This document shows, piece after piece, positions 1-55,955 of a DNA stretch of 64,000 nucleotides. The notes beneath the pieces were generated by a model, which was not told the origin of the DNA, searched no databases, and saw nothing but the letters and a program-made list of their open reading frames with translations. The translations under genes were made by a program, and so were the position numbers. Source of the DNA: Felis catus (lineage: Eukaryota); the NCBI RefSeq assembly GCF_018350175.1, contig NC_058384.1, positions 32,302,001 through 32,366,000 of the forward strand, read 5' to 3'. Every line of letters begins with the position of its first letter. Position 1 is the stretch's first letter.

Positions 1-1170
1 AGAATGAATCTGAACCCTTACCTAACACCACATACAAAAATTAACTCAAACTGATTGAATACTTAAGTGTAAGAGCTAACCCTATAAAAACTCTAAGAAA
101 ACATAGGTATAAATCTTCATAACCTTGAATTAAGTAAGCAATGGTTTCTTAGATATGATGCCTAAGGCACAGGCAACAAAAAAAAGAACAAAGTGGANNN
201 NNNNNNNNNNNNNNNNNNNNNNNNNNNNNNNNNNNNNNNNNNNNNNNNNNNNNNNNNNNNNNNNNNNNNNNNNNNNNNNNNNNNNNNNNNNNNNNNNNNN
301 NNNNNNNNNNNNNNNNNNNNNNNNNNNNNNNNNNNNNNNNNNNNNNNNNNNNNNNNNNNNNNNNNNNNNNGGAATGAGCAAAGGATTTGAACAGACATTT
401 CCCTAAGGAANNNNNNNNNNNNNNNNNNNNNNNNNNNNNNNNNNNNNNNNNNNNNNNNNNNNNNNNNNNNNNNNNNNNNNNNNNNNNNNNNNNNNNNNNN
501 NNNNNNNNNNNNNNNNNNNNNNNNNNNNNNNNNNNNNNNNNNNNNNNNNNNNNNNNNNNNNNGGCTGATGGGGAATGGAAAATGGTGCAGCCACTTTATA
601 AAAGTTTGGCATTTCCTCAAAAAGTTAAACATAGAATTACCATATGACTCAGCAGTTCTCCCTAGACATATGCTCCCACAAAAACGTCTACGTGAATGTT
701 CATAGCAGTATTCATATAACCAAAAGTGGAAATAACCTGAATTTCCATCAGCTGATAAATGGGTAAACAAAATATATCCGTACAGTGGAATATTATTTGG
801 CCTTAAAAAGGGATAAAGCAGTGATACACAACAACTTGGAAGAACCATGAAAACATGCTATAGGAAATGTGTCAGTCACAAAAGGCCCCAGACTGTGTGA
901 TTCCATTTATATGAAATGTCCAGAAGAGACAAATCTGTAGAGACAGAAAGATTAGTGGCTGCTGGGTGGGAGGAGGGGAGAATGGGGAATCACTGCTAAT
1001 GGGAACAGGCTTTCTTCTGGGGGTGATGAGAGTGTTATGGAAATAGATAGCGGTGATGGTTGCACATTGTGAATCTCCTAAAAGCCATTGAATTGTATGT
1101 GTAATTTTAAGGGTGAATTTTATGATATGTGAATTACCTCTCAACAAATCAATACTAATAAAAAATACAA
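1..1170 (+). mobile_element. Old L1 (L1MB-like) ORF2 3' part and 3' UTR, partly N-masked
   Basis: Decayed ORF2 text (aattaactcaaa..., aacagacatttccc, aaagttaaacatagaattaccatatgac), L1MB-type 3' UTR and an A-rich end. Confidence 0.85.
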
Positions 1171-1174
1171 TTAA

Positions 1175-1353
1175 GAGGCACCTGGATGGCTCAGTTGGTT
1201 AAACGTCCGATTCTTGATTTTGGCTCAGGTCATGATCTCACGCTTCCTGAGACCAAGTCCCATGTCAGGCTCTGAGCTAATAGCATGCAGCCTGCTTGGG
1301 ATTCTTAACCTGTCTCCCCTTCTGCCTCTTTATCTCAAAATAAATAAATAAAC
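1175..1353 (+). mobile_element. CanSINE (older subfamily)
   Basis: gaggcacctggatggctcagttggttaa head, AATAAA tail, diverged TSD aaaatacaatt/aaaatgcaatt. Confidence 0.9.
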
Positions 1354-1384
1354 TTTTTTAAAAATGCAATTCGTGTCAAAAAAA

Positions 1385-2625
1385 AGAAAGAAACCCACAC
1401 ATATAAGGTCAATTAACTTATGACAAAGGAGCCAAGAATATACAATGGGGAAGGGCAGTCTCTTCAACAACTGAACAGCCCCATGCAAAAGAGTGAAACT
1501 GGACCACCTATTTCACCATACATAAACATCAACTCAAAATGGATTAAAGACTTGAACATAAGACCTTAAACCATACAACTTATAGAAGAGAACACAGGCA
1601 GTAAGCTCCTTGATGTGGGTTTCGATGATGATTAAATTTGACACCAACAGCAAAGATAAACATGAAGCTATATCCAACTAAAAGCTTCTGCATAGCAAAG
1701 AAAACCATCAATAAAATGAANNNNNNNNNNNNNNNNNNNNNNNNNNNNNNNNNNNNNNNNNNNNNNNNNNNNNNNNNNNNNNNNNNNNNNNNNNNNNNNN
1801 NNNNNNNNNNNNNNNNNNNNNNNNNNNNNNNNNNNNNNNNNNNNNNNNNNNNNNNNNNNNNNNNNNNNNNNNNNNNNNNNNNNNNNNNNNNNNNNNNNGG
1901 CACATAAAAAGATACTCTATATCATAATCATGAAGAAATGCAAACAAAGCCACCATGAAATATCACCTCACACTTATTAGAAGGGATATTAACNNNNNNN
2001 NNNNNNNNNNNNNNNNNNNNNNNNNNNNNNNNNNNNNNNNNNNNNNNNNNNNNNNNNNNNNNNNNNNNNNNNNNNNNNNNNNNNNNNNNNNNNNNNNNNN
2101 NNNNNNNNNNNNNNNNNNNNNNNNNNNNNNNNNNNNNNNNNNNNNNNNNNNNNNNNNNNNNNNNNNNNNNNNNNNNNNNNNNNNNNGACAAGATATCTGC
2201 ACCACCATGTTCACTGCACCATTATTTACAATAGCCAAGACACGGNNNNNNNNNNNNNNNNNNNNNNNNNNNNNNNNNNNNNNNNNNNNNNNNNNNNNNN
2301 NNNNNNNNNNNNNNNNNNNNNNNNNNNNNNNNNNNNNNNNNNNNNNNNNNNNNNNNNNNNNNNNNNNNNNNNNNNNNNNNNNNNNNNNNNNNNNNNNNNN
2401 NNNNNNNNNNNNNNNNNNNNNGACAAATACTGTATGATCTCTCTTATATATGGAAACTTAAAAAAAAAAAAAAAGCTTATATATAAAGAGAACAGATTGG
2501 TGGTGGCCAGAGGCAGGGGGAAGGGTGAGAGAAATCGGTGAATTACTATTTTTTTTTAGTTTAAATAGAATTATTGTTTATTTAAAAATATTAAAAATCT
2601 CTTTAAAAGTTAAAAAAAAAAAAAA
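1385..2625 (+). mobile_element. L1 ORF2 3' fragment plus 3' UTR (L1MA/L1_Carn-like), partly N-masked
   Basis: tgacaaaggagccaagaatatacaatgggg, aactcaaaatggattaaagactt, ORF2 peptide DICTTMFTAPLFTIAK, and poly(A). Confidence 0.85.
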
Positions 2626-2669
2626 GAAGCTGGTACTGTCTCCATAATAGTGAGCATAGAATCTGGTAA

Positions 2670-2850
2670 GGAGGCAGCCAGGTATGATGGAAAGCACATC
2701 CTGTTTACTAAGCCAGGTGGCCTTGAACAAGTCATTTAACCTCCTGGATTCTTTGTTTCCTCATCTATAAAATAGGGACTATAATAACTAACCTCCAAAA
2801 GAATTCTGTGTGAGAACTAAATAAAAGCCAGCGTCCAGGCAAGTGCAATT
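2670..2850 (+). mobile_element. MIR fragment
   Basis: Core ccttgaacaagtcatttaacctc...gtttcctcatctataaaataggg. Confidence 0.7.
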
Positions 2851-3223
2851 AGTAGATGTTAGAGTATTTCTACCTCAGATGATCACTTGGAGAGCATCAC
2901 AGTGGATGACAAGGGAAAGCGACAAAGACAGGCCTTACTAGTGGCAAAAGCTGTTGGATTCATATCACCTGCTGCCTTATAACAACCTGTTCTAAGCAAA
3001 AAGTGTTCCATGATTAAATGTTTAGGAAGTGCTGAATTAAATAAATGTCCCTACTTTATGGCAAAACTGCAAAAGACGACAGACTAGGCAAAAGTTTTCC
3101 AATGAATTTTGCCAAGGATCCCTATTTAAGATCCCTTCTTTAGTCTCCCAAGAAATTATTTCCTTAAAATAATAACTTTGGGAATACTTTGGGGAAAGCT
3201 GACCTCTTGCAATGAGCCTAGGA

Positions 3224-4280
3224 AGGGAATTAAAAGCAAAAATGNNNNNNNNNNNNNNNNNNNNNNNNNNNNNNNNNNNNNNNNNNNNNNNNNNNNNNNN
3301 NNNNNNNNNNNNNNNNNNNNNNNNNNNNNNNNNNNNNNNNNNNNNNNNNNNNNNNNNNNNNNNNNNNNNNNNNNNNNNNNNNNNNNNNNNNNNNAAACTC
3401 CACACCCAAAAAATAATCCAGTGAAGAAATGGGCAGAAAACATGAATAGACACTTCTCTAAAGAAGGCACCCAGATGGCCAACAGGCACAAGAAAGGATG
3501 NNNNNNNNNNNNNNNNNNNNNNNNNNNNNNNNNNNNNNNNNNNNNNNNNNNNNNNNNNNNNNNNNNNNNNNNNNNNNNNNNNNNNNNNNNNNNNNNNNNN
3601 NNNNNNNNNNNNNNNNNNNNNNNNNNNNNNNNNNNNNNNNNCTGTTGGCGGGAATGCAAACTGGTGCAGCTGCTCGGCAAAAAAGTGTGGAGGTTCCTCA
3701 AAAAATTAAAAATACAACTACCCTATGACCCAGCAATAGCACTACTAGGAATTTATCAAAGGATACAGGATTGCTGATGCATAGGGGCACATGTACCCCA
3801 ATGTTTATAGCAGCACTTTCAACAATAGCCAAATTATGGAAAGAGCCTAAATGTCCATCAACTGATGAATGGATTAAGAAACTGTGGTTTATATACACAA
3901 TGGAATACTACGTGGCAATGAGAAAGAATGAAATATGGCCTTTTGTAGCAACATGGATAAAACTGGAGAGTGTTATGCTAAGTGAAATAAGTCATACAGA
4001 GAAAGTCAGATACCATATGTTTTCACTCTTATGTGGATCCTGAGAAACTTAACAGAAGACCATGGGGGAAGCGATGGAAAAAAAAAAAAAAGGTTAGAGA
4101 GGGAGGGAGCCAAAACATAAAAGACTCTTAAAAACTGAGAACAAACTGAGGGTTGATGGGGGGTGGGAGGGAGGGGAGGGTGGGTGATGGGTACTGAGGA
4201 GGGCGCCTGTTGGGATGAGCACTGGGTGTTGTATGGAAACCAATTTGATAATAAATTTCATATTAAAAAAGAAAGAAAGA
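3224..4280 (+). mobile_element. Young 5'-truncated felid-type L1 with perfect 13-bp TSD
   Basis: ORF2p C-terminus (…TCTPMFIAALSTIAKLWKEPKCPSTDEWIKK…FSLLCGS, 3771-4043), G-rich 3' UTR, AATAAA and A-rich tail. TSD AATGAGCCTAGGA at 3211-3223 and 4281-4293. Confidence 0.95.
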
Positions 4281-6213
4281 AATGAGCCTAGGACTGAGAG
4301 TCAGGAGACCTGGCCTCTAGTTCTGGTCCAAGTAAATTTACCTCCCTGGGCCTCAGTGTCCTCTTCTCCAAAATGGGAAACTTAGGCCAGAATCTCTCCT
4401 CCAAGATCTTTTTGGATCTAACTTTCCACAATTCTATGGTTTCTGCAAAATATACTAGATTGTCTTGCGTTGGAGGGAAGGTGAACCAGAGACCTCTGAA
4501 TTTCCAAATAATTCTTCAAAAATGCCCATACTTTCAGCTCCAAATATCACAAACAAAAGCAAAAAAAAATTAACTTCTTTATGGCATGAGCATTTCCAGA
4601 AGTATTACAACTCATTCATGGCATATGAATATATCACTTTCCACTAGTTCTAAACACCACTGGTTCACCTAATGTTTCCAGATGCTTCTGCAACTAGCTC
4701 CGTTATATTTAAATTCTGCCCACTAAATTGAATAAGATGTTCCCTCTTCTCTTGCAACAAAGCTGTCTGGTTCAAAAAAATAACAGAGCTATCAAGGGAC
4801 AACAGGAAAACTGCACCGTGCAGGCAGGTGGCTCATGTAAAAAACCCTCATGTGATTCATTTCCCAGGACTAACTCGTGATCGACTCCAACTCTGCATCT
4901 TCACCTACAACTAGAATGTTACAGCGGTGGCTTACAGAAGATGAAGTAGTGGTTCCCCTTCCACACAAGCAGTACGTTCTAGAAGGTTTAGAATCTATCA
5001 GCTATTACCAATATATATAAATAATTCATTTGCGATTGATCAAAGACTAGCACTAACCATAAGATTTATACTTTTTGTTTCCTAAATAAATCAAGGGATA
5101 CACCAGTATTATAGAGATGTCAGTTCTCACCAAATTTATACACATATTCAATGTGATTTCAATCAAAAGTCAACCAAGATGTTTTGTTTTGGGGTTGTTT
5201 CCGTTTTGTTTTGTTGTTACAGAAATTGGTAAGATGTTTCTTCAATTTTTTATGGAAAGCCAAAGATCCAAGAGTACCTAAGACAAGCTGAGAGAATGAT
5301 GGCAGGGAAATTATATTACAAGCAACAATAATTATAAAACTTCCTTAATTAGGACAGTACAATGTTGACTCAGGAGACACACCATTGGACATCTGATTTA
5401 TGATAAAGATAGTGCTGCACATCAGTGGGGAATTGATGGACTTTTCAATGAATGTTGATCTTTATATCATACATAAAATTAATTCCAAATAGAGTATAAA
5501 TCTAAATAGGAAAGGTAAAAAAAGATAAAGCTTCCCGAAGATAATATAGAGTGATATCTTCACCATCTTGGAGTAAACAAACATTTCTTAATGAGGACAC
5601 AGAAACCACTAACAATAAAGGAAAAAACTGAGAAACAGGACCTAATGAAAATGTTAAATACCTACATATCAAAAAACATCATTAAAAGAGTAAAATATGG
5701 AAGTTATAGAGTAAGAGAGAACATATTTGCAAAACACAAAACCAACAAAAGACTTACCTGGAATATATAAAGATTATTTATAAATCAAGAAGAATAAAGC
5801 AAGTGACTCAATTTTTGTTAATGGTCAAAAGACTTCTAAGGGCACTTCTCAAAAGAGAAAATACAAGTAGTCAATAAACATACGTGAAGATGCTTAAACC
5901 TTAGTCATCAAGAAAATGCAAATTAAAATCATGATGAAATACCATACACACACACACACACACGAAGAACTAAAATCAAGAAGATGGACAATTCCAAGTT
6001 TCAGAAAGGATATGTAGCCACTGGAATCTTTCATGTATACTGGTTAGACAATAAATGGGTGCAACCACATCAGAAAACTGGTGACTTCTACTGAAACTGA
6101 TCACACACATATACTAAGACCCAGCAATGCCATTCCTGCATCTGTACCCATAAAAGTGTGGCACGTGTGCACTAAAAGACATGTACAAGATTTTTCAGAG
6201 TAACATTATTTGT

Positions 6214-6454
6214 TTTTTTTGTGTGTGTGTTTTTTTTAATTTTTTTTTCAACGTTTTTTATTTATTTTTGGGACAGAGAGAGACAGAGCATGAACGGGGG
6301 AGGGGCAGAGAGAGAGGGAGACACAGAATCGGAAACAGGCTCCAGGCTCTGAGCCATCAGCCCAGAGCCTGACACGGGGCTCGAACTCACGGACCGCGAG
6401 ATCGTGACCTGGCTGAAGTTGGACGCTCAACCGACTGCGCCACCCAGGCGCCCC
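6214..6454 (-). mobile_element. Young felid CanSINE (SINEC_Fc type)
   Basis: Full-length, CpG-intact; TSD CAGAGTAACATTATTTGT at 6196-6213 and 6455-6472. Confidence 0.97.
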
Positions 6455-6735
6455 CAGAGTAACATTATTTGTAAGAGCATTAGTCTAAAAGCAATTTAAA
6501 AAGTCCATCAATAGTTGGATAGACATAATTATAGTATATTCAGACAATGGAATAATACAGCAATAAAAATGAATAAACTATTGCTAGACATAATGATACT
6601 GATGAATCTTTCAAACATTATGTTGAAAGAAGCAAGACACCAAAAAGAAATATAGTCAGCTCTGCCAAAATGTGATGTATATGTTCCTAAAGATCACCAC
6701 ACTATGCAAAATCAAGCATTAAACCACAGGGCTTA

Positions 6736-7293
6736 GAAGATATTTACAAATGACATATCTGATATAGGGCTAGTATCTAAAATATATAAAAAACTTATAC
6801 AACTAACTCAACCCTCAAAACAACAAATAATCCAATTAAGAATGGGCAGNNNNNNNNNNNNNNNNNNNNNNNNNNNNNNNNNNNNNNNNNNNNNNNNNNN
6901 NNNNNNNNNNNNNNNNNNNNNNNNNNNNNNNNNNNNNNNNNNNNNNNNNNNNNNNNNNNNNNNNNNNNNNNNNNNNNNNNNNNNNNNNNNNNNNNNNNNN
7001 CACAAGAAACAACAAGTGTTGGTGAGGATGTGGGGAAAAAAGAATCCTGGTGCACTTTTGGTGGAAAGCAAACTGGTAGAGCCACTGTGGAAGAGAGTAT
7101 GGAGGTGCCTCAAAAAATTAAAAATAGAATTATCATATGATCCAGCAATTACACTACTGGGTATTTACCCAAAGAATACAAAAACACTAATTCAAAAAGA
7201 TATATGCACCAGGATGTTTATGGCAGCACTATTTACAATAGAAATTATGGAACCAGCCCAAGGGTCCACCAACAGATGAATAAATAAGTGGTG

Positions 7294-13800: not shown

Positions 13801-14329
13801 TTTTAAATGTTTTTGTCATGAGAACATTTGTTTTTCCAGATTGTGATACAATATTTGGGGTAAGATGACAGAAATAAAATTCCAGGCTGCTAAAAGTAGT
13901 GAGTCTAATAGCAAATCACAAAAGCATATTAGATTAGGGCCTAAAAAGGAATCAAATCACCTATTGGTTAATGGTGAACCAGAAGTAAACATAGCCTCTT
14001 TCTTCAAGACAGAAGAAGAAGTGAATCTCTCCCTAAAAAAGTATAACCATGAACCAGTCCTATCTGGTATCCATCAAATAAATATAAGCACAAATTTTGT
14101 CTGGAGGAAGGTACCTTTGTAGTGGACCACAGGAAAAACCCACATATAATCACATAAGACGATGATCAGCACACAAAGATAACCAAGCATACAAGGAAAG
14201 AGGTGACATCAGTAAGACCCAGCACAAAAAGAAGACAGTAGATATAAATACAGATTTAATATAATGAAAGTATCAAACATTGATTATAAAGCAATTATAC
14301 TCACTACGTTTAAGAAACAAAAGACAAGA

Positions 14330-14558
14330 GGGGCGCCTGGGTGGCGCAGTCGGTTAAGCGTCCGACTTCAGCCAGGTCACGATCTCGCGGTCCGGGAGTT
14401 CGAGGCCCGCGTCGGGCTCTGGGCTGATGGCTCAGAGCCTGGAGCCTGTTTCCGATTCTGTGTCTCCCTCTCTCTCTGCCCCTCCCCCGTTCATGCTCTG
14501 TCTCTCTCTGTCCCAAAAATAAATAAACGTTGAAAAAAAAAATTAAAAAAAAAAAAAA
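14330..14558 (+). mobile_element. Young felid CanSINE (SINEC_Fc type)
   Basis: Near-consensus, CpG-intact, long poly(A); TSD AAGAAACAAAAGACAAG. Confidence 0.97.
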
Positions 14559-14574
14559 AAGAAACAAAAGACAA

Positions 14575-14770
14575 GGGATGCCTGGGTGGCTCAGTTGGTT
14601 AAGTGTCCAACTTCGGCGCAGGTCATGATCTCCCAGTTCGTGAGTTTGAGGACCGCATTGGGCTCCACACTGACAGCACAGAGACTGCTTTAGATTCTCT
14701 GTCTCCCTCTCTCTCTACCCCTCCCTCTCTCTCTCTTTCTCTCTCAAAAATAAATAAACATTAAAAAAAG
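14575..14770 (+). mobile_element. Older CanSINE directly in tandem
   Basis: gggatgcctgggtggctcag head; bounded by further copies of aagaaacaaaagacaa. Confidence 0.93.
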
Positions 14771-17257
14771 AAGAAACAAAAGACAAATCTGAAAATATCT
14801 GCAGAGAACAAGAAACTACAATACATAACCCTTCCAGATGAATTTGGCCTTGGAAAAAGTATTAATTGAGGTAGTCTACTGAACAAGCTGCTCATCTCCA
14901 CAAAGACCACCTCTTTGTCCTGGCATTTTCCTCAGCACTTGCATATTCCCTCAAACTGCAGAGGCAAAGGAAAGAAAACAGAGAAGTCTGTAGAGGCCAT
15001 TTTTTCTTCAAAATTCAGAAACTAATCTATGTTATCTACAAAAGCAGCAGATAAACCTCAAGTATTTTTGTCTATCTCAGGCACCAAAACCATTAAACTA
15101 TAAATATTATGAAGAGTTAGATAATTCCCTAAAATCTTCCCTGGGAGAATTCTGAAGATCTCTTCTGTCTTTCCTATCCTTTGACACTCAGCATCCCTTG
15201 TCATCTCTCACATAGCTTCCTGACTGGCCTCTCTGTTCCAAGCACTGCTCCTCTACAAACAGCCTCCACAATTACCTCTATGTAGATCTTTCAAAAATAA
15301 GAATCATGGTACTATCTTGCAAAAATCTTTCTGTGACCCACCCCTCCCCAGCCTATTAAGGATGAAGTCCATACTCTGTACCTAAAAAAGCAAGTACCTA
15401 AAAAAAGTTCCTACCTTTTTGGTGTTCTCTGGTGCAACCAGCCTATTCATCAACATCACACCTTGCATCTTTCCTGCCATGATCCTGAGATGCTTAGACT
15501 TTGTTCAGTGTGCAATTTTATGCCTTCATGGCTTTGTGCATGCTGTATCTATCCCTCAAGTCTGGTACTTCTCATCGTTGAAGCTCACCTCTGATGTCCA
15601 ACCTCCTCCATGATGACTTTATCACTCAGAATATAAAGTTAAGCATTCACCTCTTTGTTCCCAAAGCACTTATCAAAACTGGTATGTCCCAAAGCACTGT
15701 TGCACATTCTTCCACAACTGATTACCACTGTATCCTAAGCACTCGGCATAATGACCGGCAGGAATATAGGGAAGCCCTCTCCTTCAAGCATTTTTCTATG
15801 TAAAATAGATCTTAAGCCTCATTCAGACTCACTTAACCACTGTGCCTCTTTTTCCTGAATCAGATAGTCTGAGATGTTTCCCAATATCTTATTTCCTTAC
15901 TCTATACTTTTGCTTCTTTTAGTAAAATCTTCGCTGATGAAATGCAAAAGGTATGATCCAAGTCTCTAGTGATCTTGTTGGGGCAGCCACCAAGTGAGGA
16001 AAGTAATCAAGACTCAAGCTTCAAATGTGATAAAAGTAAGTGATAGGTAACCATAGACATGAATAGAATGTTAAGACCGGACCAAAAGCAATTCTTTTAT
16101 GTTAAAAGTTACCTGGTGTCTTCTAGCTTAGTAAAAACACAATGACATTCCTAGGAAAGGTGTGTTTCCCCAAACAGGCCTATATGACCATCCACTGGCT
16201 ATTTGCCATTTGAAAGTCAGCACACAACAGTGCCCGTTATGTCGTCTGACATTTTTTGATTGTGTGTGATTGACAACCTTAAGAATATAAATGATCCGCT
16301 CTTATACATTGTAACAAATGTGCTCAAAAACCTGCTCACCTAGGGGACTCAGCTTGGAACAAAGGTTATGAAAGTGGTCCCATCTACCCAATGTGTAAAG
16401 AATAACTGAGGAAAGGGAAATCAAGCGAAAGCCCATGTTCCTGAGTCATAAACTGGGTGGCCTGGCCTCTCCCAAGCAAGCCAGATACACCTAATGCTCT
16501 CTGGTGTTCTAACAGTGTTATAACCGCTGCCTCAGCCCTCAGTTGTCTGTTTTCTTCTCCCTCTAAAAGCCACAGGTTTTAGGTAACTCCCTTTGCTACC
16601 TACTCCTAATCCCATGAAGATGTCTACCAGCATAGCAAGACAATCACCTTTAAGACAAAATTTTAGATTTCCCTTTTGCTTTACTGATAGGTGAGTCAGT
16701 TTTTTCCCCCCAAGGTCACATGAAAGCACCACTAGAAAAAATAAAGAAAAGTCCTGAGACATGCTGCCTAGAGATCTAAATAGGGCTCAAATTAGCAGCT
16801 GCCTCCTTCTCTAGGCAAGAGCTGGCAGCAGCTGGAGTGTGACAATACTCAGAGGAGAACAGAGGGGAGCAAAGGGGCACTGCACTGAGGGACAAAGGAT
16901 TCAAGCCTCAGGTCGGCTGGATGCTGGGCCACTTCCAAGTGGGGCGGTCCATCCTGCCTGACCTCCCAGGAAGCCTCAGTGTGCCCCTTGACACGGGGTG
17001 ACATATACTTCCAGACCAGCTATTTCCATCTGCTGCTTCCGGTATAATCAGCGTCATGGGTTAGAGAAGGACACATGAGAAGATAAATATTAAGCACAGA
17101 CTTAACTTGAACCTAACTTGAAGAGGGTGTTTCTGACCTTCTAGTTCTGGACTTATGTGTTGAACTGCTCTGTTTCTTTGGGGGTGGGGTGGGGGAAGAA
17201 GTCACTGCCAACCCATCTGAATACCTTATCCCACCACCTTCCTGCACCACACATCCT

Positions 17258-20269: not shown

Positions 20270-21045
20270 TGGTAAAACATTCTGTGAAACCATCCGGCAG
20301 TATCTGCAAAAGCTGGATATGTGCATAGCGTGTGAGGCAGCAGTCCTATTCTCAGGTATACACCCAACAAAAATGTGTACACAGCTTCACCACAGGTCAT
20401 ATATCTGACTCGTGGTGGGAGCTAATAGCTGCTACGTTTGTCAACAACAGAACGGGTAAATGAATTATAACATGTTCAGAAAATGGAATACTTACTAGTA
20501 CTAAGCACAAAAAATCCATAACCACACTCAAAAATATGGATGATTCTCTTGGGGCGCCTGGGTGGCGCAGTCGGTTAAGCGTCCGACTTCAGCCAGGTCA
20601 CGATCTCGCGGTCCGTGAGTTCGAGCCCCGCGTCAAGCTCTGGGCTGATGGCTCGGAGCCTGGAGCCTGTTTCCGATTCTGTGTCTCCCTCTCTCTCTGC
20701 CCCTCCCCCGTTCATGCTCTGTCTCTCTCTGTCCCAAAAATAAATAAACGTTGAAAAAAAAATTAAAAAAAAATATGGATGATTCTCTTAATGTGATATT
20801 GAGCAAAAGAAGCTAGACACAAAAGAATGGATAGAATGCATTTCTGTTTATATACACACAAACAAGCTTCCTGACAAAAAGCTATGCATTTAGAAGCCAA
20901 AATAGTGGTTACCCAAGTAATTGGCGGAGTCATAAGAAGGGAGTTTTAGGCACAAGTTATACGTGTGTGTTCACTTAGAGAAAATTCTTATGATATATAC
21001 ACACTTCTGGGTTATGGTATATTTTAACAAAAAAAAAACTTTAAA
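20270..21045 (+). mobile_element. Ancient L1 (L1ME-like) 3' fragment split by a SINE
   Basis: ggtatacacccaacaaaaatgtgtac, aatggaatact, ttgagcaaaagaagctagacacaaaaga, A-rich end. Confidence 0.7.
20551..20768 (+). mobile_element. Young felid CanSINE (SINEC_Fc type)
   Basis: Near-consensus; TSD AAAAATATGGATGATTCTCTT at 20530-20550 and 20769-20789. Confidence 0.97.
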
Positions 21046-28399: not shown

Positions 28400-29540
28400 A
28401 CTTGATTACTGAAGTATAGTTGACATACGATGTTGTATTAGTAGTTTCAGAGGCACAACATAGTCATTCCACAATTCCATACACTGTGCGACGCTCACCA
28501 CAATAAGTATAGCTACATTATGGCACCACGTACCATTATTATATTATTAATTATATTCCTTATGCTGTACCTTTCATGTCTGGAACTTACTTATTTTATA
28601 ACTGAAAGTTTGTACTTCTTAATCCTCTTCACCTATTTCACCCCCCACCCCATGTCCCTCTCCCCTATGGCAGCCACCAGCTCTGTGTATTCACAAGTCT
28701 GTTTCTGTTTTTATTTTTTTTTAATTATCAATATTATTTATTTGTAAATTCAAAAAATTCATTTTTCCCCCTTTGTTAGAGTACAATGTTTGTAAATGAA
28801 TTATCACAGGCCATAGCATCATAATCATAGTGATCGTGGAAGTGACTGATGGTTTTAAAATCCATGACCTGGTAATTCCATAAATTTGTGTTAGCTTTTG
28901 TATTTTGACTAAATGAAACTGAATGTTAATATTCACAAGTATCATTCATTTTGACTCTTGAATACTCAGGGCTTTCTTCTTTGCCTTATCCATCTATATT
29001 TATTTGATGAAGAATTACTTTAGCAAAAATTTAGCTTTTATGTATATCAGTTGATCATTTCTACCGCTATTCCATGAGCTACAGTTTTCCTTGGAAAATC
29101 TCAACCTCAATATCCAACCAAAGAATGTTATTTCTTGCATGCTTATTGTAAAAACCAAACTATTTTTTTTATTCTACATGTAAGTAAAATCATATGGTAT
29201 TTGCCTTTGTCTGACTTACGTCACTTCGCATAATACCCTTCACGTCCATCCATGTCACAAATAGCAAGACTTCATTCTTTCTATGGCTGAGTAATATCCC
29301 ATCACACATACATACCACATCTTCTCTATCCACTCATCTATTTACGAACACCTAGGTTGTTCGTAATCACCAAACACCTTGGTGATTGTAAATAATGCCA
29401 CAATGAACATAGGGGTGCACGTATCTTTTTAAATTAATATTTTCATTTTCTTTGGGTAAATTTTCAGTAGTGGAATTTCTGGATCATATGGCATTTCTAT
29501 TTTAATTTTTGAGGAACTGCCATACTGTTTTCCACAGTCC
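28400..29540 (-). mobile_element. L1 3' end (L1MA9/L1_Carn-like) split by a non-L1 insert
   Basis: tgaagtatagttgacatac...ataactgaaagtttgtac at 28400-28711; resumes collinearly at 29171 (attctacatgtaagt...aatttttgaggaactgccatactgttttccacag). Confidence 0.88.
28723..29160 (-). pseudogene. Retroposed insert of unknown origin (retrocopy or endogenous viral fragment)
   Basis: Non-L1, AT-rich, ~440 bp; interrupts a collinear L1. Minus-strand AATAAA at 28742-28737 lies 14 nt before an A run; TATTTTTTTT direct repeat at 28712-28721 and 29161-29170. Confidence 0.6.
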
Positions 29541-31781: not shown

Positions 31782-31926
31782 CTTGTATGAAGATCCTGTT
31801 CCAGTAGATTTTCCCAACTTGACTGCCCCCAAGAAACACCAGGTTGGACAGGATCAGCATGGAGGTGGAACAAGACGCAAAGGCGGCGTGGAATCGACGG
31901 CGGGCTTGTGGGGAGAGGAAGTGAAT
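31782..31926 (-). CDS. HHAT: HHAT penultimate coding exon (145 bp)
   Basis: Translation IHFLSPQARRRFHAAFASCSTSMLILSNLVFLGGSQVGKIYWNRIFIQ(G) matches HHAT. Acceptor ccttttccccacag|ATT, donor CAAG|gtaagt. Its phase-0 start fits the phase-0 end of the 54960 exon. Confidence 0.97.
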
Positions 31927-33690: not shown

Positions 33691-35188
33691 ATTTTTTTTT
33701 AAACGGTGATGAAAAAGACATGGGCATGAAATGGGCTTGTAATTCAGCACTCTTCACCTCTGAGAATAGGGAGACATTAATCTACCAGTTTCTGCATTTG
33801 AGAGCAGAAGATATTTTCTGTGTATCACTGGCTCAATCAGCAGTAACTAGGGAGGCAGGAAGAGAGGAAGGAGGGAGATAAGGGGGAAATTCAGAATGAT
33901 AAATTAAGACAATATAGATTACCCTAACTGGCACAAATGTATCCAAATAATTCTCTCCAGGTACAGGACCACTGATAACGTGTTTCATTTCTAAGGGACC
34001 CGGTGAGTCAGATGTTCTGGCACTTCTGTTCCAAGCCCACCTGTGTCCTCCAACCTTACATCCTGTTAGGGGAATTCAAAGGCTCCATGTAATCTTTTCC
34101 ATATTAATGTCAATGACACAGAATGCACGTAGATTGGTTAAGCTCAGAGTGGTTCTCCTTTTACAGGAAATGATTACAATTATTAAATAACCAACTGAGA
34201 GATACTGAGAGAGGAAACTGCTCTTTGCATTGGGCTTAGTTCTAAGCAGGACTGAGGAGCCAGGTGACCCAGTAGGGGGCAAGGGCCAGGCTGGTAGGAG
34301 GCAGAGGTGTGGGGCAAGGGGCAGAGCAAGGGAGGAGGTGAGGCGGAGAGTGAGTCCTGGAGGCACAGGGCTCCTCATTTCAGCACCCGAAGCTCTGGTT
34401 CTAACAGATCTTCCTTTGCTTCTGTGATTATTCAGCTATATGAGTCAATAAATTCCTATTTCTGCTTAGGGAAAAAAAAGTCAAAATAATAGCAAATATG
34501 AAAGAGCCTCTGATCTCAGAGGCAATGGAGGACATCTAAAATCTGACAAAATGGGCTACAATTCAATTTTTATAAAGAGTTAATTTTGCAAAAACTAAGC
34601 AAGAACATTAAAGGCACAGGCTTTTAGAATCAACACACCAGAAAGATACAAAGGAGAAATCAAGATGCTTATAGGCAGTTGTTGATTACCAAAGTAGGAG
34701 ACAATAAAGTAAATCCAAAAACCTGATTGAACTAATAGCCCCATCCTCTGAACTAACAAAATTAGCCTGCCTGCCCACAAGCAGCAAACTTGACTCAGCA
34801 TCACTTCTCTGCCCTGTGGATCAGTGGGAGAGCAGAATGAGAGGCACCAGGAACAAAAGAGAGGGCCTGTGCGGATAGCCCACGGTTAATAGCAAAGGGG
34901 ATGTGAATCTCAGCTAGAACCCATCTCTCCTCTTCGGAGTCCCTGAAAACACTGCGGGAGGTGACGGTTTAGACACTGGGGATCTCCCTCTACCTTGGGA
35001 GCCATCTGGTTTTTCAGCCCCTGATTTACACTCCAGACCCAAGTTCCATGCTTAGAGGTCCTAAGGAGGGAAGAAGTCACATGGGCAAGGCTGGAAGGGT
35101 ATATCTGGCCAGCTCCACCAATAAATACGACTTTCTACATCTCTAGGGCCATGGAGTCAACATTCCTACTTTAAACTCTTGATTTCTT

Positions 35189-35421
35189 GGGGCGCCTGGG
35201 TGGCGCAGTCGGTTAGGCGTCCGACTTCAGCCAGGTCACGATCTCGCGGTCCGTGAGTTCAAGCCCCGCGTCGGGCTCTGGGCTGATGGCTCAGAGCCTG
35301 GAGCCTGTCTCCAATTCTGTGTCTCCCTCTCTCTCTGCCCCTCCCCCGTTCATGCTCTGTCTCTCTCTGTCCCAAAAATAAATAAACGTTGAAAAAAAAA
35401 TTTTTTTTAAATAAAAAAAAA
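35189..35421 (+). mobile_element. Young felid CanSINE (SINEC_Fc type)
   Basis: Near-consensus; TSD AAACTCTTGATTTCTT at 35173-35188 and 35422-35437. Confidence 0.97.
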
Positions 35422-35799
35422 AAACTCTTGATTTCTTTTACACAGTCTCCTTAGATATCCTGTAGCCATTGTTGCCATCACTCCTGTGGTCCTTCACGTC
35501 TAGGATACAGGCTATCTGTTCGTGTGCACAGGCCACGCCTCGTATGTTAGTCATGATTCAGGTGCTGAAAAGCCTCCCTGGTAGGAGAGGTCATGTGATG
35601 GACTGTGCTCCAAATGGGGAAATAAGCCAGTGTATAGCGAGGAGCCATCAGGTATGAAAATAGGAATTGCCAACTTGGTCAGATAAGGCAATGACTGGTA
35701 AACAGAATCTGATTTTAACACAAACGCAACAGGATACACCAGAGCTCTGGTCTGGTCATGGACTCTTCCCATAGGAAAGATGAGGCTACGGCAATTCAA

Positions 35800-44610: not shown

Positions 44611-46199
44611 CAAATCTGGGTAATGAGCATACAGACCCTGGGGCTTCCTTCTTTCTCTGCCCCCCACTCCCCATGACGAAGGCGATGATGAGAAATTTTT
44701 TTTGTGAATAAATTGTATCAGAGTGACTCTAAACTCAGGGACAACGGGTACAGTGGCATTTCAGAATGCCAAAGATATTTTCATTAAGTTTCTCAAGAGA
44801 AAAACAGATTACATATAAAGAATCAAAAATCAAAATGGCATTTCTCAACAGTAAAGCTAAAAACTAGAAGACAAATTACATCTTCCAAATTTTTCAAGAG
44901 AAATTACCTTTCAACCTTAAAATTCAGTGCTCAGACAATCAATCAAATGTGAGAATAGAATAAAGACAGTTTGGGAAATGCAAGTCTCAAAAAAATTTAT
45001 TATCCATGGTCCTTTTCTAAAGGCCCTTCTACTAGGTCTAATAGAAGTAGTCCTTGTACTGAAGGACGTGCTCCACCAAATCAAAGGGAGGAGAAAACAA
45101 GGGGACATGGGGTCCAAGACCCAGGGATTCAGCCCGGGAAAGAGGAGGAGGAAAGTGTCAGGACCAGCTGTACAGTCCATCTAAAGAGATATGATCCAGA
45201 TGGGACAGAGGATGGAAGGGCCCAGGAGAGGTTCTCCGGGAAAAGAAGAGAGCTGACAGATTGCCAAATACATCTGACCACATGGAAATGACTATTCTGA
45301 GGGATTTTTCCATTTTACTGGGGAGTTTGCAAAGAAGTGGTGATAGTAAACTACTAATCAAACAAAAAGAGGCAAGGTGATTCTTAATCTGAGGTGGGCA
45401 AACAGTGGACTAGAAAGGAAATTCAATTATAGCATATTAACTGGCATGGCAGTAAGCCACACTTAACATGGTGGTAATGGGAACATCGAGTGCTGATGGA
45501 ACCAAACACAGAGCTACTACCATATTGGAAGGAGAAGTAGGTCTCAGATGCTAAAACCTCATGTAGAAAGCAGCTAATATTTATAATTCTTAAGGGAAGA
45601 ACTAAGAGAATATACTTTAGAAAGGTGGAAGTAAATGTCAGAAACAACTGAAGTGAATTGGAAGTTGTTGCTGATGAGGAGAAGGATGTATGAGCAGAAT
45701 GGAGACTAAAGATTCCTTTACCTCAAGGAAGCCTTGCAGGAAGATTTGACTTCTGACCCATAAACAGATATTCCTTAAACTTTCTGGGTTTCCATTTTTT
45801 CCCACTGCAGAACAGGGATAATGACAGTACTTACCTACAAAGCTACTATTGAAACCACATGACATAATTTGGTAAAAATGCTCTTGTGAGCATTGCCACT
45901 TCACTTAGAGCAATTTTTCCATACGCAGGTAGAGTGAAGCCACAACTAAAACACAAGATGTCCAAGAACTGAGGGCTGGAATGTGAAATTGATATAATGC
46001 CAAATGGTTCTGCCTAGCTTGCTTGTCCCGAATTGCAATTCTTTGTTATTCCCGAAGAAATCCATTTTTGCTGCTTAAAAAAATTTAATGCCAAATGTAC
46101 ACAAGCAGCAAGGAGAGATGAATGAATAAGTGTGTAATATTTATCAAGGCAGGTGTCTCTTCTTACCTAAAATTAAGGAAGCTCAGAATAAATTATGTA

Positions 46200-49400: not shown

Positions 49401-50587
49401 AGGGTTCCAGTCTTGAGAAAATGGCTTATCCATAATAAGTACTCGATCTCCATTTCTTGAATTGATTTAAGCAGTAGAGAAATAGAAGATCATGAGCCAC
49501 TCTCAAACAGACCTACTCTTCTTAGACTAGTTTGCTTTGTGATGCTTCAGTTAGGTGGGACTGGAGTCACTGACCTTCTTATCAGGCCAACTGGCATGTA
49601 TATCCTGCCAATTAGTGAGTTAGGATTCCACAAAACTAAGCACTGGTTATATATCATGTCAATAATTCTTATAATTGACTGAACTCTCAAACTCATGGGA
49701 TTTCTGTATCTACATCTTCAAAGTCAAACCAACCAATATAGCAGATAAACTGAATGTGTATCAGCACAGAGCCATGGTCTTTGGGCTCCTTCTGACACAT
49801 CAGAGCATCAGATCCCTCTCAGAACCATTAGACTGACCCTCCCTGATTGTCACTGGAGGCATCTTTCCTCAATTAAGTCTATAAATAGAAATTTTACTGC
49901 TTTAGAGAGGACATAAATCAGCTCAGCAGGATACTCTTGGGGCAAAGAAGAGGAGACATAGGCAGGGGGAGGAGGACATATTGAAATTATTCAATGAAAT
50001 GAACATTAGGAATGGGGGGGGTGAACTGCTTGAGGTATCGATTCTCCTTTGCATAGGAATAACTGACAAGCAGCCTGGAGGTATCTTCCTTCAAAGGAGA
50101 GAGCACATCCAGAATTGGCAAGAAGTAATGTCACTCTACTGATGTTTCACAATGTGTCCACTTATTAAAAGATTTCAATGCTGAACACAAATTCTAGCTC
50201 CCCGAGAGAGTGCTTGTGTAGAGGAAAAGCATGTTGCTTTAGCAGTTAACTCCTCTTTTGTCCGCCCAGCTCGGGTGCTTTGTGAAAGTACCTTTCGTCA
50301 GCTTCCTACAGCTCTGTGCCTCAGTGAGTCACAACCAATAATCCCACATCTCATAAAGCAGCAGGGTACCAGAAAGGCTAATTTCTCCCCATCCATTTCT
50401 TTCCTATATATATTTTGTTCACTGAGCGTTAAAATAGCATTTTGCCATCACTAGACCAATTACTATCTATGCTGCTATGGAAAATAATAAGCTCCCTGTA
50501 TAATGCTCAACAAGCCTCAGCTTTAGGAAGTTCTTTCAGTTTTCACTCTGTATTCTCCATGCTGCTGCCATGAGCCTACTTCTTCTT

Positions 50588-50818
50588 TAAAATTTTTTTT
50601 TCAACGTTTATTTATTTTTGGGACAGAGAGAGACAGAGCATGAACGGGGGAGGGGCAGAGAGAGAGGGAGACACAGAATCGGAAACAGGCTCCAGGCTCT
50701 GAGCCATCAGCCCAGAGCCCGACGCGGGGCTCGAACTCCCGGACTCGAACTCCCGGACCGCGAGATCGTGACCTGGCTGAAGTTGGACGCTTAACCGACT
50801 GCGCCACCCAGGCGCCCC
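50588..50818 (-). mobile_element. Young felid CanSINE with duplicated B box
   Basis: TSD GAGCCTACTTCTTCTT at 50572-50587 and 50819-50834; ctcgaactcccgga tandem at 50730-50757. Confidence 0.97.
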
Positions 50819-50864
50819 GAGCCTACTTCTTCTTGTACTGCCCTCAGTGAAATCAGAAAATATT

Positions 50865-54815: not shown

Positions 54816-54959
54816 ACTGCTATTTCTGGGTACATCTACTCTGAACCAATCTGGCAGGAACGGCCCATGTTGCGATGAATCTGATGACCATCTTCCCTCC
54901 CAAACCTAGTCCACCTAGCTCAACTGTTCCCCCGCCGCAGGGGCAAGGGTCCTGCTCAC

Positions 54960-55161
54960 CAAGCTGTCCTGGATGCACGGGGTCTGCACAAGCCTCTGGA
55001 CGGTGTTCTCCGCGACGACTCCCAGCCAGTTGAGCGCTGCCCAGTACCAGAGGTAGTCATGGCCACCATGCCAGAAGCTCACAAATGCAAACGTCACTGC
55101 AGTGGCAAACAGTGTCCTCAGCAGGCCATGCTGGGACCCGCCTACTGGAATGTACACATAC
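54960..55161 (-). CDS. HHAT: HHAT internal coding exon (202 bp; corresponds to human residues ~348-415), contains catalytic MBOAT His
   Basis: Translation (R)YVYIPVGGSQHGLLRTLFATAVTFAFVSFWHGGHDYLWYWAALNWLGVVAENTVQRLVQTPCIQDSL matches recalled mammalian HHAT. Acceptor ctctctgtag|G (AG at 55163-55162), donor TTG|gtgagc (GT at 54959-54958). His codon CAT at 55070-55068 is equivalent to human H379. Confidence 0.97.
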
Positions 55162-55955
55162 CTACAGAGAGAAGAGGCCATCAGGAGCCATGCGGTGGGC
55201 TGTCCCTGCAATACCACCTGTTTCTGCGCTTGATTCTCCCGTCACACGTTGTTACTGAGCAAGTGAAGGTCCTTCCCGACTTCCGGGAGGCTGCAGAGCA
55301 CTCCTGGAATTCCCCAACACACAAGACACTGGCAAAAACACAGGCCTCTTTTCTGAGGGGCTTTAGGTCAAATGGATACACAGGCTCATTACCAGAGCAA
55401 AGTAGCACTTACAAGAGGCAGGGTAAAGAGTAATGAATTCTGTTTGTAAAAGGGGCGTGCCCAACCCTGGAAGGCCAAACACAGAATGACAATTAAGCTT
55501 CCAGTTACATGGGGACCCCAACCTTCAAGACAGATACATATTATACAGTTCAAACTACTATATTTATGGTAAGCCCAGTATTTAAGCACAATTGCTGCAA
55601 TTAGGCTCATAAATAGCAGGAGCTGGGTGCAGAATAGGGGTGCCAAGACCGGTTGCCCCAGCTTTCCAGGCAAGTTGCCCACAAGGAGTAGTGACGTTGC
55701 AAGAGAAGAGCTCTGTACTCACAGGTTAGCCAAATTATTGCCCAAAATGCACAGCCATCCCTTGGGTATGCTTTCTACTGCTGAGGTAGCTATTTGACCA
55801 CGTATATAAGCAGGACCATCTTCTTCAATCAGTATTTTCCCACTGTGGATAAAACCCAAACTTTGGATTTTGAGGGTTTTTTTCAAGGCTGCTTCAATCT
55901 GGCAAGGTAGGAGCATTTCCTCCTTGAAGCAGCCTTTTAACAAAGCCCACAGGAT

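What the first reader, a model, noticed from the sequence alone, without database searches (positions are those of the whole stretch)
28712..29170. Orphan polyadenylated insert with possible parvoviral capsid C-terminus similarity
Seen: ~440 bp of AT-rich non-L1 sequence splits a collinear L1 3' UTR. It has minus-strand AATAAA (28742-28737), a short A run and a TATTTTTTTT direct repeat at both ends, which fits an L1-retroposed, 5'-truncated RNA copy. Manual minus-strand translation with one frameshift at 29093 gives FYNKHARNNILWLDIEVEIF/KENCSSWN. By eye this aligns with the recalled AAV capsid segment [27 protein letters not shown] (KENxxxWN and IExE in register, 29069-29153). After a second frameshift and two stops the frame ends ...NYQVMDFKTISHFHDHYDYDAMACDNSFTNIVL* (TAA 28778-28776), loosely like the recalled bocaparvovirus end ...YDQCMPVKTNINKVL*, with AATAAA ~35 nt later as in parvoviral transcripts. 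Inference: an endogenous parvoviral element made from viral mRNA, or else a retrocopy of a host 3' UTR. The similarity is short, needs frameshifts, and the tail is longer than in AAV, so chance is a real possibility.
Basis: partly seen in the sequence, partly recalled or inferred. Interest (0 to 1): 0.75.

Follow-up and report, generated by a model that had tools for sequence, protein, structure and literature searches.

The report
Host RNA retrocopy, not a parvovirus
A 438-base insert that splits an old L1 repeat inside an intron of the HHAT gene is real, but its likeness to a parvovirus capsid is no better than chance; a near-identical second copy shows up in the same animals' sequencing data, so it is likely an ordinary L1-made copy of the end of a host RNA.

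Summary
The anatomy is confirmed. A 438-nt, 30% GC insert (28723-29160) splits an L1 that is continuous in a paralogue in the same window. AATAAA lies 14 nt before a short A run, and a 10-nt T-rich repeat sits at both ends. The parvoviral reading fails. That score is reached by 216 and 121 of 300 shuffles, while true cross-group controls score at least 118. Five of six near-invariant capsid residues are missing, and the tail is 99 codons instead of 31-55. Public contigs show the insert unchanged in three organisms. They also show a second copy, about 95-97% alike, that runs on past the insert's 5' end. Five unnamed database ORFs match the insert with a neutral, non-coding substitution pattern. 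Best reading (0.75): a young L1-made copy of the 3' end of a host RNA, either an orphan 3' transduction or a trans-mobilised non-coding or UTR end. The donor is not identified, and the target-site duplication is ambiguous. New member of a known kind; interest 0.1.

The parts
28723..29160 (-). Insert, 438 nt, GC 0.30: likely the reverse-transcribed 3' end of a host RNA, 5'-truncated at about 29160
   Evidence: Absent from the L1 paralogue. Listed contig pieces match it with 0 other letters in organisms A, B and C, and second-copy contigs run on past 29154/29164.
28737..28742 (-). AATAAA, 14 nt upstream of the A run
   Evidence: Sequence; chance about 6% in a 21-nt window.
28712..28722 (+). Left TATTTTTTTT repeat plus one further T (9-nt A run on the minus strand): target-site duplication and/or poly(A) remnant
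   Evidence: Sequence; low complexity, ambiguous.
29161..29171 (+). Right TATTTTTTTT repeat ending in TTTT/A, the L1 endonuclease consensus
   Evidence: Sequence; consensus 5'-TTTT/A-3' as given in PMC5110952.
28603..28711 (-). Target L1, 3' UTR, part downstream of the insert
   Evidence: Aligns to paralogue 7623-7514.
29171..29538 (-). Target L1, 3' UTR and end of ORF2, part upstream of the insert
   Evidence: Aligns to 7488-7347 and 7239-7084 (75-79%) and to 4027-3679 (67%).
28886..28898 (-). Frame break against 4 of 4 database relatives that span it; a second-copy contig and a contig break fall at 28892/28893
   Evidence: tblastn of P0005, P0007, P0008 and P0009; contig ends in X6 and X8. 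The second copy's letters there were not seen.
29069..29153 (-).
31782..31926 (-). HHAT coding exon 2.6 kb upstream; the insert lies in the following intron, in sense orientation
   Evidence: phmmer to HHAT chains 7q1u/7mhy, E 3e-22; AG/GT boundaries read; an MBOAT exon lies in 54918-55241, E 1e-19.

Best explanation
The insert is likely an L1-made DNA copy of the last ~440 nt of a polyadenylated host RNA, whose likely donor is a second locus seen at about 95-97% identity in contigs of two organisms. Inferred mechanism: a germline RNA polymerase II transcript ended 14 nt after the AATAAA at 28742. It was either the read-through tail of an active L1 (orphan 3' transduction) or a non-coding or UTR end taken in trans. 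L1 ORF2p nicked the T-rich tract of an older L1 at TTTT/A and primed on the A tail. It copied about 440 nt and stopped, leaving a 5'-truncated copy between two short T-rich repeats. Shown: the insertion, its junction letters, the second copy, the database relatives and the lack of viral similarity. Inferred: the RNA intermediate, which copy is the donor, the age (order of 10 million years, from 3-5% divergence and a recalled mammalian rate) and the lack of function.
For: - Collinear L1 paralogue without the insert.
- AATAAA 14 nt before the A run, TTTT/A at the right junction, and the T run on the strand that target priming requires. These are the class 1 hallmarks in PMC5110952.
- The length fits orphan transductions: median 335 bp somatic and 968 bp germline in PMC13009371.
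- Second copy: X5 record 3 fits 29099-29164 with 5 differences, and 234 nt of it lie off the stretch. X6 record 15 fits 29099-29154 with 3 differences, and 94 nt lie off. Both carry 29129 T>C and 29133 T>A.
- X6 records 9, 11 and 12 differ at 3 of 68, 3 of 67 and 2 of 66 sites beside a window-type record. X6 depth rises to 48.6 where the copies seem to merge (29.6 and 24.1 apart).
- HMMER over 1.84 billion proteins gave 4 hits (E 5.7e-10 to 2e-6), all short unnamed singletons; a fifth came.
- Their substitutions look like neutral DNA drift: mean BLOSUM62 of 57 mismatches -0.33, against -0.16 to -0.27 simulated.
- 4 of 4 relatives that span 28886-28898 change frame there, where the second copy also parts from the window copy.
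Against: - The direct repeat is low-complexity. As a duplication it leaves a 1-nt tail, against 10-40 A residues in fresh class 1 insertions, and needs about 23 nt lost from the target tract.
- No empty site was seen (no joints), and the left junction (28670-28734) was skipped by the tool.
- The second copy was seen only in short pieces, in 2 of 3 DNA-type runs (24 pieces listed, 429 not shown). In X8 only contig breaks at 28893 and 29128 hint at it, and depth there does not double (9.05 against 9.6).
- No read of the one raw RNA run lay on the insert (5 reads laid, all on the L1 flank; about 1% of the run read), so no transcript is shown.
- The DNA of P0005-P0009 was not seen, so their mammalian origin and orthology are inferred.
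- One relative (P0007) seems to lack the hexamer in register, judged by back-translation.
Confidence: 0.75

Rival explanations
1. A DNA-repair patch (class 2 templated insertion): donor sequence was copied into a double-strand break in the T-rich tract, using A/T microhomology at both ends, without the L1 endonuclease.
For: The tail is very short and the repeat is low-complexity. Reading both T runs as remains of the target tract needs only about 12 nt lost instead of about 23. X5 record 3 aligns 4 nt into the right repeat (to 29164), which may be microhomology. P0007 suggests by back-translation an A-rich genomic run near the junction.
Against: AATAAA stands at the canonical distance (chance about 6%), the junction reads TTTT/A, and the orientation fits target priming. 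Short 5' microhomology is also usual for L1 truncations (own knowledge).
Confidence: 0.15
2. The two copies are siblings in an old, low-copy repeat or retrocopy family, and the second copy is not the donor.
For: The five relatives are only 45-55% identical to each other, except P0005/P0009 at 84%. This fits dispersed old copies as well as orthologues. No repeat library (Dfam, Repbase) was available.
Against: At 80% likeness the insert shows depth of one or two copies, against thousands on the L1 flank. Only 4 hits came from 1.84 billion proteins. There was no relative in viral, metagenome or prokaryote contigs.
Confidence: 0.07
3. An endogenous parvoviral element: the 3' end of a capsid mRNA retroposed by L1, directly or through an older, decayed viral fossil at the donor locus.
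For: K-E-N-x3-W-N is unique in 127,996 codons. A stop with AATAAA shortly after also occurs in real dependoparvoviruses (-1 to 29 nt in 9 of 9; 33 nt here).
Against: The score is 35 (frameshift cost 12) or 39 (cost 8). It is reached by 216 and 121 of 300 shuffles and by 236 and 196 of 272 window tiles; cross-group controls score 118-253 for 65 of 65. Capsid profiles give at most 0.9 bits, and profile-profile probability is 0.2%. Of 6 near-invariant residues in the segment (Y, T, G, W, W, P; 59-65 of 65), only the second W is present. The tail is 99 codons against 31-55. There was no parvoviral hit in Pfam, the PDB or 1.84 billion proteins (one frame).
Confidence: 0.02

Closest known systems
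Class 1 templated sequence insertions (Onozawa and Aplan 2016, PMC5110952; parts 1-2 of 4 of the text read)
   Same: A distant host sequence was copied into a TTTT/A site, with AATAAA 10-30 nt before an A run and a flanking repeat of at least 5 bp, and the donor is still present.
   Different: The tail here is 1-9 A rather than 10-40. The insert is shared by three organisms rather than shown to be polymorphic. The host is a cat-family animal, not human.
L1 orphan 3' transductions (PMC13009371 and PMC4862182; passages read)
   Same: Unique non-L1 sequence of a few hundred bases, ended at a polyadenylation signal and without L1 sequence at the 5' end.
   Different: No source L1 upstream of the donor could be tested, so cis transduction is not separated from trans mobilisation.
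Endogenous parvoviral elements (Campbell et al. 2022, PMC9707805; PMC11521997; passages and supplement term searches)
   Same: Only a short by-eye motif, and a stop followed by AATAAA.
   Different: No significant capsid similarity, conserved residues missing, and the tail about twice too long. The 9 'Felis catus' places in supplement 10 of PMC11521997 list bornavirus G, circovirus Rep and AAV-like Rep elements and no capsid element. 'HHAT' is not in the 21 supplements of PMC9707805 held as text.

Membership tests
Endogenous parvoviral element (VP) | Significant translated similarity to Parvoviridae VP | tested here: not met
   also 10-12, 17, 26, 31, 83. The references were 18 dependo-like, 37 boca-like and 10 other capsids; proto-, amdo- and chaphamaparvoviruses were probably not among them.
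Endogenous parvoviral element (VP) | Conserved C-terminal residues Y-x-T-G ... W ... W-x-P | tested here: not met
Endogenous parvoviral element (VP) | 31-55 residues from W-x-P to the stop | tested here: not met
   296 nt (99 codons) in the insert, against 31-55 in 65 of 65 capsids.
Endogenous circoviral element (Rep) | Significant similarity to the Rep endonuclease domain | tested here: not met
   The Pfam hint on P0009 (E 0.021, below cut-off) was not borne out with 109 natural Rep domains: 1.1 bits, profile-profile probability 0.4%, and insert score 39 reached by 163 of 272 tiles.
L1-mediated retrocopy / class 1 templated insertion | Polyadenylation signal 10-30 nt before the A run | tested here: met
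   AATAAA 14 nt upstream.
L1-mediated retrocopy / class 1 templated insertion | Insertion at 5'-TTTT/A-3' | tested here: met
   29167-29171; weak, because the target tract is T-rich.
L1-mediated retrocopy / class 1 templated insertion | Target-site duplication | tested here: inconclusive
   A 10-nt low-complexity repeat; no empty site seen.
L1-mediated retrocopy / class 1 templated insertion | Non-templated poly(A) tail | tested here: inconclusive
   A run of 9, of which 8 can be assigned to the repeat; the donor's 3' side was not seen.
L1-mediated retrocopy / class 1 templated insertion | Intact donor elsewhere in the genome | tested here: inconclusive
   Second copy seen in pieces in 2 of 3 DNA-type runs; not placed, and donor status inferred.
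Orphan 3' transduction | Source L1 immediately upstream of the donor sequence | not testable with these tools
   No genome is held for this window.
Processed pseudogene of a coding mRNA | Match to an annotated mRNA 3' end, spliced exons | not testable with these tools
   No mammalian transcript collection was available. No longer protein relative among 2333 candidates. No RNA reads on the insert in one run.

The most novel reading that the evidence does not exclude
The donor locus is itself a very old, mammal-wide fossil of a parvovirus lineage with a longer capsid tail, decayed below detection, still transcribed in the cat-family germline and copied again by L1: a second-generation viral fossil missed by published screens.
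Probability: 0.02. Interest if true: 0.55.

Novelty: new member of a known kind. Interest (0 to 1): 0.1.

Why it matters
As read here it matters little: it is one more L1-made copy of host RNA, a class that is well described. It could serve as a presence/absence marker in cat-family phylogeny, and as a fossil of one germline transcript end or one active L1 once the donor is placed. It is also a clean example of a convincing by-eye viral motif that scores at chance level. Had it been parvoviral, it would have been a capsid-derived element; the cat rows I saw in one published screen list none.

Tried and rejected
- Pfam on all six frames with stops read through, on the frameshift read-through and on the five relatives: nothing at cut-off. 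The best were Viral_Rep E 0.021 (P0009), P5-ATPase E 0.051 (P0008) and CCDC85 E 0.22 (P0002).
- PDB by sequence: only DARPin-type matches at E 0.076 or worse for P0001, and none for P0002 or P0004.
- Circovirus Rep lead: followed with 109 natural domains from 128 loci (19 dropped for lacking a long enough domain) and rejected.
- tblastn of 153 long viral-contig ORFs against the window: best hit touching the insert E 0.88.
- Relatives in viral contigs, metagenome contigs and prokaryote genomes: none. A DNA pattern gave 51 metagenome loci; the best blastn matches were confined to the 19-28 nt around the pattern.
- Plasmids and Rfam: none.
- Longer protein relatives and relatives of the second minus frame: none; both searches are word-based and weak.
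- Whole genome: not held. The ESM Atlas was not searched.
- Truncation of HHAT by the insert's AATAAA: considered and set aside. Other minus-strand AATAAA sites lie nearer the exon (31257, 30407, 29173, 29004), and no RNA read supports it.
- Literature searches for a description of this insert and earlier scan notes by sequence and place found none. The library omits most subscription papers, and bioRxiv supplements were closed.

Full report
Setting. The window is mammalian DNA rich in SINEs and L1. Runs that hold the insert include two labelled 'feline metagenome', and earlier scan notes call this genome cat-family (unchecked notes). Two HHAT exons lie on the minus strand: an MBOAT exon in 54918-55241 (Pfam E 1e-19) and one at 31926-31782 (phmmer to HHAT chains, E 3e-22; boundaries read). 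The last coding exon was not found by motif in the minus frames. The insert therefore lies 2.6 kb into the following intron, in sense orientation. No whole genome is held.

The observation. The flanks align to an L1 paralogue in the window: 28603-28711 to 7623-7514 and 29171-29297 to 7480-7347. The paralogue has 33 nt between these blocks; this copy has 459. The insert (28723-29160, GC 0.30) has no other match in the window. On the minus strand AATAAA (28742-28737) lies 14 nt before a run of 9 A. TATTTTTTTT stands at 28712-28721 and 29161-29170, and the right copy ends in TTTT/A. Two cautions apply. The hexamer has about a 6% chance at this composition. The repeat is low-complexity: taken as a duplication, it leaves a 1-nt tail and an empty site about 23 nt shorter than the paralogue's. 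The insert is not an assembly artefact. 20 of 24 listed runs hold it, in 12 studies, 7 of the runs marked as a possible source of this DNA. Listed contig pieces from organisms A, B and C match it, and in part the right junction, with no other letters.

The parvoviral reading. Pfam found nothing at cut-off in any of six frames, the frameshift read-through or five relatives. The PDB search found no capsid. For a direct test I took 65 natural capsid ORFs from 84 viral loci; the other 19 loci gave no capsid-like ORF of 400 residues or more. They were 18 dependo-like, 37 boca-like and 10 other. It scores 35 with frameshift cost 12 and 39 with cost 8. These values are reached by 216 and 121 of 300 dinucleotide shuffles and by 236 and 196 of 272 window tiles. 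As a positive control, the natural 3' 438 nt of each virus, scored only against other groups, gave 118-253 in 65 of 65. This control uses intact viruses and so overstates the power against a decayed fossil. Capsid profiles give at most 0.9 bits, and profile-profile comparison gives 0.2%. The distance from W-N to the stop is 99 codons, against 31-55 in 65 of 65 capsids. A sub-threshold circovirus Rep hint on one relative (E 0.021) also fell to chance against 109 natural Rep domains.

What it is related to. HMMER with one minus frame over 1.84 billion proteins gave 4 hits (E 5.7e-10 to 2e-6), and a profile added a fifth. All are 43-99 residues long and unnamed, in clusters of one or two members, from ENA or Logan contigs. 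The four that span 28886-28898 all change frame there against the insert. In gap-free blocks the mean BLOSUM62 score of 57 mismatches is -0.33; neutral drift of 15-25% gives -0.16 to -0.27, so there is no sign of selection on a protein. No longer protein carries the segment (0 of 2333 candidates; a weak search). I infer that these are chance frames in non-coding DNA of other mammals; their DNA and hosts were not seen.

The second copy. Contigs of four runs were laid at 80% likeness (24 pieces listed, 429 not shown). X5 record 3 fits 29099-29164 with 5 differences, and 234 nt of it lie off the stretch. X6 record 15 fits 29099-29154 with 3 differences, and 94 nt lie off. Both show 29129 T>C and 29133 T>A. 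X6 records 9, 11 and 12 differ at 3 of 68, 3 of 67 and 2 of 66 sites beside a window-type record, with depths 11.3 + 12.4, 24.1 and 29.6; depth is 48.6 where the paths merge. Record 9 stops aligning at 28893 with 7 nt left over, and X8 breaks at the same place. That is where the distant relatives change frame, which suggests that the second copy keeps the older state and the window copy is the derived one; the letters were not seen. Against this, X8 shows no second-copy piece among those listed and no doubled depth (9.05 against 9.6), and the tool drops human-like contigs without notice. Depth on the insert is tens, against thousands on the L1 flank, so it is not a young high-copy repeat. In the one raw RNA run (about 1% read), all 5 reads laid were on the L1 flank. 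No empty-site joint was seen, and the left junction was skipped.

Mechanism. The best reading (0.75) is target-primed reverse transcription by L1 ORF2p of a polyadenylated host RNA into the T-rich tract of an older L1, truncated after about 440 nt. It has the class 1 hallmarks of Onozawa and Aplan (PMC5110952, parts 1-2 of 4 read): signal 10-30 nt before the tail, TTTT/A and a flanking repeat, though the tail is much shorter. The size fits orphan transductions (PMC13009371, passages; PMC4862182, passages). Whether the RNA was the read-through of a source L1 or an independent non-coding or UTR end cannot be told without the donor's surroundings. Divergence of 3-5% suggests an age of the order of 10 million years, using a rate from memory. 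The rivals are a DNA-repair patch using A/T microhomology (0.15), sibling copies of an old low-copy family (0.07) and a parvoviral fossil (0.02).

Comparison with print. For PMC9707805 I saw passages and term searches of its 21 supplements held as text; 'HHAT', 'Felis' and 'Felidae' do not occur there. For PMC11521997 I saw passages and the 9 'Felis catus' places in supplement 10, which list bornavirus G, circovirus Rep and AAV-like Rep elements and no capsid element; files 9 and 12 were not searched. Data on Zenodo or GitHub and bioRxiv supplements were out of reach and could bear on this. Searches found no paper on this insert; the other papers in the search results were seen as listings only.

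Verdict. The insertion is real and of an ordinary kind, the viral reading is not supported, and the donor is unplaced. New member of a known kind; interest 0.1.

Noticed in passing
window 31782-31926 and 54918-55241, minus strand: Two HHAT coding exons. The frame of the 31.8-kb exon stays open for about 90 codons into the intron after the splice donor, so intronic polyadenylation would give an altered C-terminus; no RNA support was sought beyond.
   Followed up: partly
window 198-7000: Eight runs of N, 141-193 nt each (1314 in all), inside L1 ORF2-like sequence; they look like masked stretches rather than assembly gaps.
   Followed up: no
window 6213-6465, 14326-14569, 20540-20773, 35180-35424, 50580-50821: Five young SINE copies 90-97% alike; two SINEs lie in tandem at 14312-14787.
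   Followed up: no
window 29339-29394: A 26-nt imperfect inverted repeat (77%) in the L1 flank, probably a small local inverted duplication that interrupts the L1.
   Followed up: no
P0009 residues 14-59: Sub-threshold Pfam Viral_Rep match (E 0.021); chance level against 109 natural Rep domains.
   Followed up: yes
window 45601-45684, minus strand: The best tblastn hits of two dependoparvovirus capsids in the window (E 0.016 and 0.052, 28 residues, among 153 queries) fall here, and P0005/P0009 also hit it weakly (E about 0.1); most likely chance.
   Followed up: no
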